From NCBI RefSeq assembly GCF_001677475.2, contig NZ_CP015229.1: a stretch of DNA of 64,000 nt. One strand, 5' to 3'. Position 1 is the stretch's first letter. Each line of letters begins with the position of its first letter. The position numbers are program-made. Shown here piece after piece: positions 42,001 to 48,000 of the stretch. The DNA is from Escherichia coli (GTDB lineage: Bacteria; Pseudomonadota; Gammaproteobacteria; Enterobacterales; Enterobacteriaceae).

Positions 42001-45000
42001 TCGATTCGTTCAGATCACCCCGTGTTCAGCAGGGCGGTCGGGTACTTGAACACCGTCGAAAGTTCGGCCCGCATCCTTAGCCTTGCGGCTGTTTTTCGGT
42101 ATACGCGCTACCCGACCATATCTGAAAAATGGACATAAAAAATCCGCATGACTGACGGGCGCGGTTTCCGCTTTCGAAGGTGTGTTCAGCACCATGGAGC
42201 GGAATATATCCCCGCTAATGCGGATTTGTCAAATCTGGCCTTAAAACTCGAATTGTCTTGCCCGCAGGCTTTTCAGCATTGGTCTGGCCCGCTGGATAAC
42301 GAAACTTGACTGGTCAAGCCGTGCCGCCTCCCGCAGTAGCGCGTCTCTGTTCTTCGTCACCATGTAGATGGTTTCAAACGCAATGTCATACAGCTTGTTC
42401 GTGTATGAGGAGTTCAGCTCTTTCATAATGGGATACAGGTGTTTGCTGATGTTCTGGGCTTTTTCCATCCAGAGCTGCATGTAGCAAAGGAGGATGATTT
42501 CCTCGGCTGTGAATTGTGGCTGAATCTGCGACTGCTGTTCGGTTTGTATTGTTTTTCCCAGGCTGAAATAGCAGTCTTCCAGTTTTTCGAATACTTCCCA
42601 CGCTCGATCGGTTTCGAGCATTTTTGCATGACGGGCTGCGCCGCGTTCTGTCCAGAGGATGAGGTGCTTTGTACGCGGTGCAACTAAGTTACTTTGAGTA
42701 ACCTTGTTCTTAAATTCCCGCAATTCAGCCCCTTCCAATTTGAAGTAGTGCTTCCCGCAAACAAAACGCTCGGCATTGCGCGTATAGTTCACTTTGATGT
42801 TATTAGTTTCGGTGCCATAAAGTTGTGCCAAAAGCTCGGTGGTAATAACAAGAATCTGGTTATGGGTAATCGGGGAGATGGTTTCAACAGAGATTTGAGT
42901 TGTCATAATGACGCCCTCTAGTGGTTTCTAAACTATCACCACCGTAAGGTTCCAATCATCGGGTGGTGAGACGCACAGGGTTGGAACTACCGGGAAACCG
43001 ACCGGCGAGCTTTTCAGCTCCCCCATGCGCCCCACCATAATTCAGATGTGCGCGTGCATACGACAATAAAAAACACGCTCGCGGCGTGTGTTTGTCGCGG
43101 TCTCTATCCGGGGTTCCAATCCCGACGGCCAACTCGACCGTGCGAAGAATATAATCCCGGATAAGTAATTACGTCAACCCCAGCGGCAAATCGAATACTC
43201 CACCAGCGCCACCGCCAGTGCAATTCCTGCCGTTGTGAACGCCTCAGGCCAGGTCATCGTAAAACATCCTCCACGCTTATAAGTCCGTTTCGCTCCAGAT
43301 AGTCCATCGCTTTATCCGGTAATTTGCAGCCCGGTTTCGCTTTCCTCAGTTGCCAGGCTAACTGCTTTACCAGCATGGTTAACTCGTCGACCAGACGCTG
43401 ATATCCCACTGGTTTGTATTCATGCAATTTACCAGCTGGCTCTGCTACCAGCGATGCCAGTGCAATTTTGAATAACTCACCCTCTACCCGTGCCATCTCT
43501 GAATTAGGGTGGCATTTCGCAATCGCTATTTTTAATTTAGCTTCTTCGATTAATTGCTCTTTTGTTAATTCAGTCATTTTTCATTACTGCCCTTTCAGGC
43601 GGACTCCTGATGTTCTGAGGGTACAGAAATCCCTCCGGTTAAGGATTAAATTTTTAACAGTGCTAAATTTAATTATTCAGTTCTGGATTTTGTCGCTCTG
43701 CGCATCCGCGCTTTTGCGTTACGCTCAATCTGAATTAGCTTTTCTATATTTTTCCGCCTTTCCCGTTCCTCCTGACGCAATAGCCTTACATCATCTGCCA
43801 GTCTGGTTTCTCTTTTCGCCACAGAGAGCATCCAGTCAAACGGCTCCACAACTGCACCGCAGATTTTACAGCGGACCTGACGCTCTTTTTCGTCAACCCG
43901 GACAGAGTCGTGATGACAATATGGTCTTTCCGATGGCTCATAAAGAAAATTAACCTGATTACGTGGGTCATCCTCTTTTACCGGAAATAAAACAATATTA
44001 CTTAACTCATCTTCTGGTTTTATTTCCACGTTAGTCTCCTTTAATACGAATCCCTGCAACACGTAGTGCATGTTCTAAATCAGCAAGATAAAGCCAGCTA
44101 CCATTTTCTTTAGGTATCATGACATGACGCTCATCAGCATTTATCGGGTGTCCATATCGAAGTTCATAGCCAGCCGGTAGCTGGACTTCCCTTGCTTCCA
44201 GTTCTGCAATGCGCTTGTCTTTGGCTTCCAGTTCATCAAGAACCTTCTTTATGGCTGGTGAATGTGCCGTATAACTCGCAGCCGGACCAGCAAGCATTAT
44301 CCTGAGCTGTGCTTTCGCTTTTTCTATTCTCATCTATGCCATCACCTTGTTTCGCAACCAGACACAAACCGGACCATCTTCAGTATCATGAATGGAGCCA
44401 ATAAACCAGCCTTCGCCCTCTGGTCGTTCCGGTTCCCAGGTGGAAATATCGGGGTCATCTGCAACCGGATTTAAATAATCTTCATCCATGCTGCAAATAG
44501 TCCACTGAAGATTATTTGCCTTCATCCAGGCGCTAAACTCTTCCGTTGAAATATATTCCCGACCGTCACAGAACTTTTCATATTCTGGATGTGTCCAGCA
44601 GCCATATTCATCACGTTCTACTGGTATTTCTCTAATTTCATTCATTTCTGTTCTCCCATGTTTTCAGACTTTCACCGCAGAACGGGCAAAATGAAACCCG
44701 AACTGGTGATTTAGAAAATTCACCGGAACGCAACATCACTAAATCAGGGTCGCGAGTTAAATTCTCATTCCAGATTTTGTATATCAGCAGACCTTTTCGC
44801 GTCGTGTATTCAGCATCATGCTCAAGGGAGTTTGCCAGTGCCGTACACGGTTCTATCTTGTTGCCATAAACCTGGCATTTTGATTTACCCACTGGTCGCT
44901 TCCTTCACAAAAATAATCCAATGTGTTTTATCGTTCTTACCGGTGCGCTGGCTGATGATTGGTTTCGCGTCGGTTAGTGCCAATATCTGGCGGACAGGTA

Positions 45001-48000
45001 TTTGCGTTTCATTCCATTTAAAAATCAGAACACCGTGTGGCCACAACACACGAAAGGCTTCTTTAAATCCCTGCCGCAAATCATCACGCCAGGTATCTTT
45101 ATTCAGCCGTCCATATTTCTTTCCCATCCAGGCGTTATCACCAACACGCTCAAGATGCGGAGGGTCGAATACAACAACCGGAAACGATGCGTCTGCAAAT
45201 GGTAATGCACGAAAATCTGCTATCAGGTCAGGGCTAATTATCAGGCGTCGTCCATCACATAATGTGTGCTCTTCTTTTCTGATATCGCTAAATATCGCCC
45301 GGTCGTCATTCTTATCGAACCAGAACATACGGCTGCCACAGCACATATCAAGAATGGTTGCAGGTGTACTCACAGCATCACCTCCTGAAATTTCCCCTGA
45401 TAAAACGCCAACACGCGCTGCATAACCTCACTCTTCCGGCACTCGCGACAGATTATGTTCAGACGCCTGTCGTAACGACGTATTTCTCCGTCTGGTAATG
45501 AATAAACCAGGTCCGGGTCGCTCTTTTTTTTCACTGCTGCTTTCGACATCTTTTTGCGGGCCTTTATCCAGTCCTTACGTGCCTGTTCAGACGGAAATAG
45601 CCCGTAGCCGGAGTTGTATAAATCGCCACTGGCAACCAGCTCTCTGGCAAGAACACTCATCAGATATCTTGTCGCACCTGTTTTCGCTTCCAGTTGCCGT
45701 AACGTCTCGCGCCCGCTCAGACGCACAAGTTCAACAACCTGTACCTTAATTTTTTCCCGCTCTTCTTGTGTAAATACTTTTGCCATAAGCGCCTCCGGCA
45801 ATCACTTTTCCGATGCAACACGGCGGGAAGAATCAGCAATCTGTCGAACAATATCCCGGTGCTTGTTCAGCTCCCGCAGCGCGGCGCAGACACGCTCCCA
45901 CTTCTGGACATGATTTTTCGCCCGACGCAGTTCGCGGTTTGCCATATGCAGCGATGGTAAAACCAGGTCATCCGCTCGCGTTTCAGTAAACGATGGCAAC
46001 GACTGCACAATGTCCGCCACAGTTTCTGTTTTAATATCTTCCTGTGTTGCAGCTTCCTGTACCGGTAACGCAACACCTGCTGGCTGAGGAAAGGCTTTAC
46101 CATCGGTTTCTGCTACCGATGCAGCTTTCGGCTCTGCTGGTAAATTATCTCCAGGCATGCAGTAGCGAAATTTACCGTTCTGATTTACGCGTGCCAGGCG
46201 TCCCGTTGCGGTTACCACCGCCAGCGTGGAAGCAACCTTGCGAGTGCTGACACCGAACTTACCCGCCAGTTCCTCACATGTTTTAGCCCCCTCCTGAGAG
46301 ATAAACTCAATCATCATGTCAGCGCTAACTTTTGGAGCGACCTCTTCGGTTACCACATCCGGCGCTTCAGGTTGTAGTGCCTGCCCTTCGGTTACCCCGG
46401 ATTCACCTTCGACAGCCAGAAACCAGGTGTGACCCGTTTTATCAACAACGCCATTTTTTTTGAGTTCCCACAGTTCGTTGAGAACTTCTTCACGGCTGAT
46501 ATCAAGCCGCGCCGCCAGTTCAACAGAATTGGCTTTTCCCATCGCTTTCAGTGCATGCAGTACGGTTTCCATCGAAAATTTACCTCGTCAAAAATTCTCA
46601 CATACCCTGACGCCCAACGTTTGATCGCCAGCTCTCCCAGTTAAAACTCACCCAACGACCACCGTTCATGGTCATACGGTCCATCACCCGCTCGCCGAGG
46701 AGTGTGCTCATCGCTGCGTGATTCAGGTTCGTCAGGATTCCGACAGTGCGCAGTGATGCCGTTCTGCGGTCGACGATCTGGTTCAGTATGACCTGCTCGT
46801 TGCGCGTATCCCGCTGCATGCCAATTTCATCCAGGACCAGAAGGTCGACCCCGCAAAGTTCCTGTAAAAATTTCTCACCGGACTTGCCGTTGTCATAGCC
46901 GTCATGCAACACGCTCATGACATCGGACACGGTGACGATAATCACGCTTCTCCCCTTCGCCATCAGCCGGTTGCCAATCGCTGCTGCCAGGTGATTTTTA
47001 CCGGTACCAGGTTTACCGCTGAACACGAAGTTTGTACACCCGGTCATCAATTCATCGGCAATGGATTTCGCCTGGCTCAGAGCATGGCGCTGACCGTCGT
47101 TCTGCACCCGGTAGTTCTCGAATGAGCACTTCCTGTGAAGCGGCTGGATGCCCGCACGGTTCAGGATTTTTTCAACCCGCGCCTGATGATTCTGGCGGTT
47201 AATTTCCTCGCTGCGCTTACGGCCCTCAGCCAGTTGCCATTCCCGCCATTCGTCGGTCGTCCGGAACGGTGCTGCCACGTGCGGTGGTGCCAGACGGCGC
47301 ACCCGTTCAAGAATCCCTCCTGTCGAAATGTTTTTCATGGCTGATTACCCCCTGAACCCCGGCGGAATTTCGGTGTCCGGTTCAGAAATGTGGTTCACGC
47401 AACGCTGGCTGACTGCGCCAGCCTTCGGCAGCGACCACGGATTTTCGAAATTCCTGTTCGGGCCAAAAAACGTCGATGCCTGCTGAACAAATTCAGTTCC
47501 CGCTTTCCCGGTAGCCTCCAGGTATCTTGCGTAACGCCTCACGCCATCCAGCACGACATCCGGTGACACCCCTTCGCGTAATCTGGCCCTCCAGGCATTG
47601 AACGCGGATTTCTTCGGGTTTGACCCTGCCCGATGCGGATATTCACGCCAGACCCGTTCGAACACGTCAGGATAATCAACTCGTCCCGCAGACGGTCCCG
47701 GCATCGCCCGGGTTAACCCAATCGGCTTCCCGCTCATCGCGGAATCGGCTTCAGGCTGCTGCGGTTGGTGTTGTTGCTCCGGTTCGACGAGCAGCACCTG
47801 CTGCACACAACGCCCGGAATCTGCTTCCGGTGTCATGCCAGCTGGTCCTGGACGTTCAGTCAGAACGGGACAAGAATCCACCAGTGGGTCCGTGGCGATT
47901 TTTTCGCCATGGACCAGAAGGGTTTTATCTCTTTCCTGTTCCTGTTCCTGTTCCTGTTCTTGGCTTGAAAGGGGCTCTGAAGGGGCTTCAATTTTCCGAC

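What the first reader, a model, noticed from the sequence alone, without database searches (positions are those of the whole stretch)
44885..45373. Orphan DNA methyltransferase in the nin region
A compact 162-aa methyltransferase with a DPPH catalytic motif and no partner endonuclease; such enzymes can protect phage DNA from host restriction.
Basis: partly seen in the sequence, partly recalled or inferred. Interest (0 to 1): 0.35.

Follow-up and report, generated by a model that had tools for sequence, protein, structure and literature searches.

The report
Small prophage DNA methyltransferase, no partner
This is a real, intact gene for a very small methyltransferase of a family common in temperate phages, most likely marking phage DNA during lytic growth to evade host restriction enzymes; it is an ordinary, already annotated gene.

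Summary
The ORF is real. It lies at 44885..45373 on the minus strand, encodes 162 aa, and has a GTG start 7 nt after a perfect AGGAGG. Motif I is LDMCCGS and motif IV is FDPPH.

It sits in the early-right (pR) operon of a lambdoid prophage, after the replication genes and 4.3 kb before NinB. Its neighbours include no endonuclease partner.

The family is large, with 2024 clusters at 50% identity. It occurs in temperate phages of several phyla at 45-65% identity. DPPH is invariant and dN/dS is about 0.1. No member has room for a target-recognition domain.

Evidence for a DNA substrate:
- REBASE-derived PADLOC models match strongly (MTase_II E=4e-72, orphan MTase E=7e-48), and PHROG 954 is named "DNA methyltransferase".
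- The protein is 47% identical to streptococcal prophage proteins named after M.NgoMXV, an unusual gamma-class N4-cytosine methyltransferase (GCCHR).
- About 10% of related loci have a second DNA methyltransferase gene next door.

The fold alone does not exclude an RNA target.

Near-identical proteins are annotated in 877 of 5426 complete E. coli genomes. Interest is low.

The parts
44885..45373 (-). Coding sequence of the 162-aa SAM-dependent methyltransferase (GTG start, stop included).
   Evidence: A 98%-identical protein is annotated in RefSeq as a class I SAM-dependent methyltransferase.
45381..45386 (-). Shine-Dalgarno AGGAGG, 7 nt upstream of the GTG start and inside the end of the upstream gene.
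   Evidence: Read directly from the sequence.
45332..45352 (-). Motif I (residues 8-14, LDMCCGS), the SAM-binding loop after strand beta-1. D9 is invariant.
45155..45169 (-). Motif IV (residues 69-73, FDPPH) directly after strand beta-4, the catalytic tetrapeptide of amino-methyltransferases. D70, P71, P72 and H73 are invariant in 48 diverse homologues.
45370..45801 (-). Upstream gene for a DUF977 / Ren-like protein. Its stop overlaps the MTase start (GTGA), so the two are translationally coupled.
44638..44892 (-). Downstream 84-aa ORF (phrog_4030; Cys6, Cys16, Cys69-x2-Cys72) that overlaps the MTase stop by 8 nt. It is in the same operon but is not a conserved partner of the family.
49383..49412 (-). 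pR-like sigma-70 promoter (TTGACA-18-TAACAT), divergent from the CI-like repressor gene (49433-50203, + strand). It is the inferred promoter of the early operon that contains the MTase.
   Evidence: This is a consensus match only, and the operon assignment is inferred from tight gene packing.

Best explanation
The gene encodes a minimal, stand-alone SAM-dependent amino-methyltransferase of the M.NgoMXV-like phage family. Its motif order is gamma-type (motif I, then D30, then D53, then DPPH). It has no target-recognition domain and no endonuclease partner. Shown here: the gene is intact and under strong purifying selection, it has a class I MTase fold with all SAM-binding and catalytic motifs, and it lies in the early-right operon of a lambdoid prophage. 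Inferred: it is silent in the lysogen because CI represses pR. After induction or infection it is co-translated with the replication and nin genes. It then methylates an exocyclic amino group of a DNA base. By homology this is most likely N4 of cytosine in a short degenerate motif such as GCCHR, less likely N6 of adenine. D70 would hydrogen-bond the flipped base's amino group and H73 would stack on the base. Progeny genomes would then be packaged pre-modified and partly protected from restriction enzymes of the next host.
For: - Gene reality and start.
- Invariant residues: D9, D30, R32, D70-P71-P72-H73, E105, R108, K119 and W120 in 48 homologues of 40-81% identity.
- DNA MTase assignment: PHROG 954 'DNA methyltransferase' E=3.6e-87. 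PADLOC MTase_II E=3.6e-72 and orphan MTase E=6.9e-48. Weak PF01555 DNA-methylase matches in 19 of 48 members.
- Link to M.NgoMXV: 47% identity (E=3e-56) to streptococcal prophage proteins that carry the name 'DNA N-4 cytosine methyltransferase M.NgoMXV' in four clusters.
- Literature: M.NgoMXV and its homologues are unusual gamma-class enzymes that methylate cytosine (PMC3874165). M.NgoDCXV is an orphan gamma m4C MTase for GCCHR (preprint 10.1101/2019.12.17.880476).
- Genomic company: a second DNA MTase gene is directly adjacent in about 9 of 86 related loci.
- Position: early, replication or recombination modules of temperate phages of several phyla.
- Operon: tightly packed genes downstream of a pR-like promoter that faces the CI gene.
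- Selection: dN/dS 0.09-0.13.
Against: - No experiment on this protein or any enterobacterial member was found.
- I could not retrieve the M.NgoMXV sequence. The link rests on transferred names and a preprint's statement of 95% identity.
- At 47% identity the base and motif specificity may differ.
- With no target-recognition domain it is unclear how a sequence is read.
- A short degenerate motif would give only partial protection from any one restriction enzyme.
Confidence: 0.65

Rival explanations
1. It is an RNA amino-methyltransferase, for example m2G, m6A or m4C on tRNA or rRNA in the manner of Trm11, TrmN, RsmC or RsmD. The phage would use it to alter host translation or to shield RNAs from host nucleases.
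Against: All these matches are weak (TM about 0.5-0.6, E>0.2 by sequence) and reflect the shared core fold. The RNA-binding THUMP or N-terminal domains of Trm11, TrmN and RsmC are absent, since the whole protein is 162 aa. No Trm112-like partner is conserved. REBASE-derived DNA MTase models match 50-70 orders of magnitude better. The named homologue M.NgoMXV is reported to be a DNA m4C enzyme.
Confidence: 0.15
2. It is a protein methyltransferase (glutamine or lysine, like HemK/PrmC or N6AMT1/KMT9) or a small-molecule methyltransferase.
For: Glutamine MTases also carry (N/D)PPY-type motifs. KMT9/N6AMT1 and many small-molecule MTases appear among the structural neighbours. Pfam sees only the generic Methyltransf_11 and Methyltransf_25 families, below threshold.
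Against: No specific family signal was found (NCBIfam E>0.005). The same arguments from PADLOC, PHROG and M.NgoMXV apply as above. Its position among phage replication genes, sometimes next to other DNA MTases, fits a DNA role.
Confidence: 0.07
3. It is a decaying or catalytically inactive remnant carried passively in a prophage.
For: Truncated or frameshifted copies exist. Phage PhiR42_1 has only a 357-nt CDS annotated and no single intact ORF spans its match. Phage HannyBb matches only residues 1-62. Prophage MTases often give no signal in lysogen methylomes.
Against: This copy is full length with a strong ribosome-binding site. All invariant family residues are present. dN/dS is about 0.1 and the protein stays 82-89% identical where synonymous sites are saturated. 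Silence in lysogens is expected from its place in the operon.
Confidence: 0.03

Closest known systems
M.NgoMXV / M.NgoDCXV (Neisseria gonorrhoeae orphan gamma-class N4-cytosine DNA methyltransferase, GCCHR) and its streptococcal prophage homologues
   Same: It is a stand-alone enzyme of about 150-160 aa with motif I before motif IV. DPPH is present in the streptococcal proteins that carry this name. It has no endonuclease partner and a prophage context. The window protein is 47% identical over 155 residues (E=3e-56) to a streptococcal representative, and it matches a 153-position PADLOC orphan-MTase profile at E=6.9e-48.
   Different: Identity is only about 47%, so base and motif specificity may differ. 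The M.NgoMXV sequence itself was not available for direct comparison. The window protein comes from an enterobacterial lambdoid prophage. That M.NgoMXV has a DPPH motif and a catalytic Asp shown by mutagenesis is my recollection of Radlinska and Bujnicki (2001), whose title is cited. I did not read it here.
Classical gamma-class DNA N6-adenine methyltransferases (M.TaqI; HsdM of type I systems)
   Same: Same linear motif order (I to IV) and a (D/N)PP-aromatic catalytic tetrapeptide directly after strand beta-4. M.TaqI is a weak Foldseek match (E=9e-5, TM 0.47).
   Different: Those enzymes carry a large C-terminal target-recognition domain or a separate S subunit. This protein has neither. Its model also shows no helices of 4 or more residues before residue 82, so the usual N-terminal helices of the fold are not predicted.
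Small phage orphan adenine methyltransferases such as PamA of S. aureus prophage mPhi11 (141 aa, NPPY)
   Same: A very small prophage-encoded orphan amino-MTase with motif IV near residue 65-70. PamA shows that an enzyme of this size can methylate DNA sequence-specifically, as DpnI sensitivity shows GATC methylation (preprint 10.1101/2024.04.17.589803).
   Different: PamA is described as Dam-like with an NPPY motif. No homology to the window protein was tested. PamA acts in lysogens and changes host gene expression, which is not expected for a pR-operon gene.
M.EcoGII / M.EcoGI (prophage-encoded non-specific adenine methyltransferases of E. coli O104:H4)
   Same: Orphan MTases on E. coli prophages that are silent in the lysogen and active only when expressed artificially (PMC5778455 abstract; PMC4659465).
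   Different: Those are beta-class enzymes, with motif IV before motif I, in the PF01555 family. The window protein has the opposite motif order and only sub-threshold PF01555 similarity.
Trm11-Trm112 and other Trm112-dependent methyltransferases (Bud23, Trm9, N6AMT1)
   Same: They are top Foldseek hits (E about 2e-6 to 1e-4, TM 0.52-0.59). Trm11 has a DPPY-type motif IV.
   Different: There is no THUMP domain and no conserved small zinc-binding partner. The gene downstream of the MTase differs in almost every locus. Sequence similarity is insignificant (E=0.26).

Membership tests
Class I (Rossmann-fold) SAM-dependent methyltransferases | Seven-stranded beta-sheet MTase core fold. | tested here: met
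Class I (Rossmann-fold) SAM-dependent methyltransferases | Motif I glycine-containing loop after beta-1, and an acidic residue at the end of beta-2 that binds the SAM ribose. | tested here: met
   LDMCCGS at residues 8-14, with D9 invariant and G13 in at least 90% of members. D30 lies at the end of strand 26-30 and is invariant. Actual SAM binding was not tested.
Amino-methyltransferases (N6-adenine, N4-cytosine, N2-guanine, Gln-N5) | Motif IV (D/N/S)-P-P-(aromatic) immediately after beta-4. | tested here: met
   FDPPH at residues 69-73 follows strand 64-69. D70, P71, P72 and H73 are invariant in 48 homologues. His replaces the usual Tyr, Phe or Trp.
M.NgoMXV-like gamma-class orphan m4C DNA methyltransferases | Significant full-length sequence similarity to M.NgoMXV or its named homologues. 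| tested here: met
   47% identity, E=3e-56, to P0305. Homologues in four streptococcal clusters are named 'DNA N-4 cytosine methyltransferase M.NgoMXV'. PADLOC oMTase E=6.9e-48. The comparison is indirect, because the M.NgoMXV sequence itself was not obtained.
M.NgoMXV-like gamma-class orphan m4C DNA methyltransferases | Methylation of cytosine N4 in DNA at GCCHR. | not testable with these tools
   This needs expression plus SMRT or nanopore sequencing, or LC-MS. Literature only.
Gamma-class DNA amino-MTases in the classical sense | Motif order I to IV followed by a C-terminal target-recognition domain. | tested here: not met
   The motif order is met. However, the protein ends 6 residues after the last core strand, so there is no target-recognition domain.
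Type II restriction-modification system | Cognate restriction endonuclease gene adjacent to the MTase. | tested here: not met
   Neighbours are DUF977, DUF1627 and small phage ORFs with no nuclease or PADLOC hit. The nearest HNH-like ORF is 3.6 kb away and has no PADLOC match. Downstream genes vary between loci.
Beta-class N6/N4 DNA methylases (Pfam PF01555) | Motif IV precedes motif I, and the Pfam gathering score is reached. | tested here: not met
   The order is I then IV. PF01555 is absent for this protein and only sub-threshold in 19 of 48 relatives, with a best E of 0.0012.
Trm11 / Trm112-dependent RNA methyltransferases | N-terminal THUMP RNA-binding domain and a Trm112-type zinc-binding activator. 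| tested here: not met
   The 162-aa protein is a single domain. No conserved adjacent small Cys-rich gene was found in 86 loci.

The most novel reading that the evidence does not exclude
This family has no target-recognition domain. It keeps 45-65% identity between phages of Proteobacteria, Firmicutes, Actinobacteria, Bacteroidetes and Fusobacteria, and its protein sequence stays conserved where synonymous sites are saturated. It may therefore not be a conventional sequence-specific anti-restriction methylase. It could recognise a universal feature, such as near-non-specific cytosine or adenine methylation, replication-fork or single-stranded DNA, or a conserved RNA. It could thereby counter host defences other than classical restriction. 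The partly helix-less Rossmann core could serve as a new kind of nucleic-acid-binding or dimerisation surface.
Probability: 0.15. Interest if true: 0.6.

Novelty: already known. Interest (0 to 1): 0.22.

Why it matters
For this window it matters little. The gene is a routine, already annotated accessory gene of lambdoid prophages, present in 877 of 5426 complete E. coli genomes. Its likely role, pre-methylating phage DNA against restriction, is a textbook one.

The wider family is of modest interest. At about 155 aa these would be among the smallest nucleic-acid methyltransferases. They lack any recognition domain and are conserved across bacterial phyla. Apart from M.NgoMXV they appear to be uncharacterised. 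Determining the specificity of one enterobacterial member would annotate thousands of prophage genes, and it would show how a bare catalytic core selects its target.

Tried and rejected
1. Trm112-like partner hypothesis. Foldseek's top PDB hits were Trm112-dependent MTases. The 84-aa ORF directly downstream (44638-44892) has four cysteines arranged like a zinc knuckle. One homologue (P0087) carries a C-terminal zinc-ribbon-like extension. I extracted the gene directly downstream of the MTase in 86 loci. It is different almost everywhere, and it differs even among MTases at least 92% identical to this one (L007-L011). The 84-aa ORF recurs only in one E. coli locus (L001). Rejected.

2. N-terminal or C-terminal extensions as hidden recognition domains. 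Longer family members (200-318 aa) have heterogeneous extensions with no recurrent Pfam domain. Examples are DUF551-like or coiled-coil regions, a weak HTH, and probable miscalled starts. These do not amount to a target-recognition domain, and this protein lacks them anyway.

3. Restriction partner. The HNH-like ORF at 40528-41238 is 3.6 kb away, has no PADLOC hit, and sits where the homologous E. coli locus L001 has a DUF968 gene just before RusA. Rejected as a cognate endonuclease.

4. Direct sequence match to solved structures. There was none for the single sequence (E>0.8). The profile found only the generic PH0226 (E=1e-5).

5. Literature.
- 'DPPH motif' and phrases such as 'smallest DNA methyltransferase' returned nothing.
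- The two key Bujnicki and Radlinska papers are not held.
- E. coli methylome papers were checked by term search only. The passages returned mention no MTase of this size.

6. The afdb50 fold library was unavailable.
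Full report
**Observation.**
- Its GTG start (45373-45371) overlaps the TGA stop of the upstream gene (GTGA).
- A perfect AGGAGG lies at 45386-45381, seven bases upstream of the start (sequence).
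- The next in-frame Met (M10) would remove part of motif I, and homologues start at the same place. RefSeq annotates the same 489-nt CDS in E. coli.
- FDPPH is residues 69-73 (nt 45155-45169), and LDMCCGS, a motif I-like SAM loop, is residues 8-14.
- This is not a chance ORF. PHROG 954 matches at E=3.6e-87.
- 7824 homologues were found, the best 98% identical.
- Codon-level comparison gives dN/dS of 0.09-0.13 against relatives whose synonymous sites are not yet saturated. In more distant relatives synonymous sites are saturated (pS 0.8-0.9) while the proteins remain 82-89% identical.

**Context.** The gene lies in a lambdoid prophage whose early-right genes run on the minus strand. A CI-like repressor gene (49433-50203, + strand) faces a pR-like promoter (49412 to 49383, minus strand). 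The genes then follow in this order:
- a DnaD/O-like initiator (47345-48427) and a DnaC-like loader (46598-47338)
- a DUF1627 protein (45802-46572) and a DUF977 / Ren-like protein (45370-45801)
- the methyltransferase, then five small ORFs of unknown function
- two anti-repressor genes, an HNH-like ORF, NinB (40155-40556), RusA and Q (37995-38474)

From the initiator to 43673 the genes abut or overlap by 4-41 nt. The methyltransferase is therefore an internal, translationally coupled member of the pR operon. 'Nin region' is a fair label. None of nine neighbouring ORFs matches a nuclease family next to the gene or any PADLOC defence model, so 'orphan' is correct.

**Distribution and conservation.**
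- Near-identical DNA occurs in 877 of 5426 complete E. coli genomes, almost always chromosomal. PGAP annotates it as 'class I SAM-dependent methyltransferase'.
- An exhaustive HMMER search found 2024 clusters at 50% identity.
- tblastn found the gene in 254 phage records. These include Streptococcus (68), Vibrio (38), Acinetobacter (19), Porphyromonas (15), Listeria, Gordonia, Lactobacillus, Enterococcus and Staphylococcus phages, at 45-65% identity over the full length.
- In three of the four distant phage loci inspected (Listeria, Streptococcus, Gordonia) the gene sits in the replication or recombination module. In Vibrio phage X29 it lies next to the integrase gene, a few kb from the replication genes.
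- In an alignment of 48 members (40-81% identity to the query), D9, D30, R32, P48, D70, P71, P72, H73, E105, R108, K119, W120 and P138 are invariant.
- Longer members have heterogeneous extensions with no recurrent domain. The conserved unit is the core of about 155 aa.

**Structure.** AlphaFold2 with this alignment gives a confident model (pLDDT 93.9, pTM 0.89).
- The motifs map canonically. Motif I follows beta-1. D30 ends beta-2, the position of the ribose-binding acid. D53-F54 follow beta-3. DPPH follows beta-4.
- The stretches between beta-1, beta-2, beta-3 and beta-4 contain no helices of 4 or more residues, only loops and a beta-hairpin (residues 34-46). The protein ends six residues after beta-7. 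There is no room for a target-recognition domain.

**What does it methylate?** The (D/N/S)PP-aromatic motif marks enzymes that methylate exocyclic amino groups: adenine N6, cytosine N4, guanine N2 or glutamine N5. This is established knowledge of the family. The fold comparison does not decide between DNA and RNA.
- The nearest solved structures are generic MTases and RNA enzymes (Bud23, Trm11, TrmN/Trm14, RsmC, TrmM and an rRNA m4,4C synthase). M.TaqI is only rank 32.
- In the viral structure library, weak matches include several cytosine-N4 DNA methyltransferases.

The case for DNA rests on four other lines of evidence.
1. PADLOC's restriction-modification models, which derive from REBASE, match very strongly: MTase_II at E=3.6e-72 and an 'orphan methyltransferase' profile of 153 positions at E=6.9e-48.
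2. The S. pneumoniae phage IPP22 homologue is annotated 'N-4 cytosine methyltransferase M.NgoMXV'. Members of four different streptococcal 90% clusters carry the same name. The window protein is 47% identical (E=3e-56), with DPPH conserved, to one of their representatives. [quoted passage not shown] A preprint states that a streptococcal gene is 95% identical to the orphan gamma m4C enzyme M.NgoDCXV, which targets GCCHR.
3. In about 9 of 86 related loci a second, unrelated DNA methyltransferase gene lies directly adjacent. These are C5-cytosine type (L028, L030, L036), DPPW type (L045, L050, L064, L079), an annotated DNA MTase in Gordonia phage RavenCo17 (L006), and an NPPF type (L035).
4. 19 of 48 members give weak matches to the PF01555 DNA methylase model around motif IV.

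I therefore put about 0.65 on a DNA amino-methyltransferase, with N4-cytosine as the favoured reaction, and about 0.15 on an RNA target.

**Partner search.** Because several top structural hits depend on the zinc protein Trm112, I tested for a conserved small partner. The downstream 84-aa ORF has a Cys...Cys / CxxC pattern that made it a candidate. Among 86 loci the downstream gene is almost never the same, even next to MTases at least 92% identical to this one. The 84-aa ORF recurs only in one E. coli locus. The enzyme acts alone, or possibly as a homo-oligomer, which I could not test.

**Mechanism and timing (inferred).**
- In the lysogen CI represses pR, so the gene is silent.
- After induction or infection it is translated together with the replication proteins. 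It then methylates replicating phage DNA, and incidentally host DNA, so that packaged genomes are pre-modified.
- This fits reports that prophage methyltransferases usually give no signal in lysogen methylomes. A lysogen with an M.NgoDCXV homologue showed no specific GCCHR methylation.
Virion DNA or heterologous expression is needed.
- That phage-borne orphan methyltransferases protect against restriction has been shown for other families (for example PMC4190342, listed). For this protein it is inference.

**Novelty.** Near-identical proteins are annotated in hundreds of genomes. The family has PHROG and PADLOC models and a characterised relative. The finding is correct but ordinary.

What remains open is of moderate interest:
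- how a core of about 155 aa without a recognition domain selects its target
- why it is so strongly conserved across phyla
- whether the enterobacterial members really make m4C

Noticed in passing
window 44638-44892 (-): An 84-aa ORF (phrog_4030, no Pfam hit) overlaps the MTase stop by 8 nt. It has Cys6, Cys16 and Cys69-x2-Cys72, which may form a split zinc knuckle. It is not conserved next to the MTase in other loci.
   Followed up: partly
window 41354-41986 and 42241-42906 (-): Two different anti-repressor (Ant-like) genes lie in tandem downstream of the small-ORF block. A promoter-like site (43177 to 43148) and a terminator-like hairpin (43089-43073) lie just upstream of the first.
   Followed up: no
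window 40528-41238 (-): An ORF matches HNH-endonuclease PHROGs (phrog_374 at E=1e-65; also one labelled 'restriction endonuclease') next to NinB. It has no PADLOC hit. It probably corresponds to the DUF968 gene that lies just before RusA in the related E. coli locus L001, and is not a restriction partner.
   Followed up: partly
window 44885-45373 (AlphaFold model m5c0e0b80debf): The confident model has no helices of 4 or more residues before residue 82. The invariant stretch CCGSRMFWFDK replaces helix A, and a beta-hairpin (residues 34-46) is inserted. This is an unusually stripped-down Rossmann core with one face of the sheet apparently exposed.
   Followed up: no
P0013, P0071 and similar (248-251 aa); P0087 (208 aa); P0125 (304 aa): Many enterobacterial homologues carry a C-terminal extension of about 90 aa. 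Others carry a zinc-ribbon-like extension (CDMCGH...YECDEGH) or a long, unassigned C-terminal tail (P0125). These look like fusions with neighbouring small nin-region genes rather than recognition domains.
   Followed up: partly
L028, L030, L036 (about 3465-5450); L045, L050, L064, L079 (about 3460-4120); L006 2418-3995: In about a tenth of related viral loci the small MTase is immediately followed or preceded by a second DNA methyltransferase of a different class (C5-cytosine, DPPW-type adenine). Together they form methylase pairs.
   Followed up: partly
L002 (phage PhiR42_1) 6001-6489; phage HannyBb PP925841.1 32745-32930: Decayed copies exist. In PhiR42_1 only a 357-nt CDS is annotated and no single intact ORF spans the match. 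HannyBb retains only residues 1-62 next to its Ren-like gene.
   Followed up: no
literature (preprint 10.1101/2019.12.17.880476): The Neisseria gonorrhoeae enzyme M.NgoDCXV is reported as 95% identical to a Streptococcus iniae gene, with close homologues otherwise confined to streptococci. Such near-identity across phyla suggests very recent transfer of a streptococcal prophage gene, or a problem with the provenance of the clone.
   Followed up: no
window 45802-46572 (-): The DUF1627 protein upstream has two winged-helix-like regions. Sub-threshold Pfam HTH matches cover residues 3-46 and 87-133, and weak PADLOC CARF/Csa3 matches (E=1.7e-6) are probably only the HTH part.
   Followed up: no
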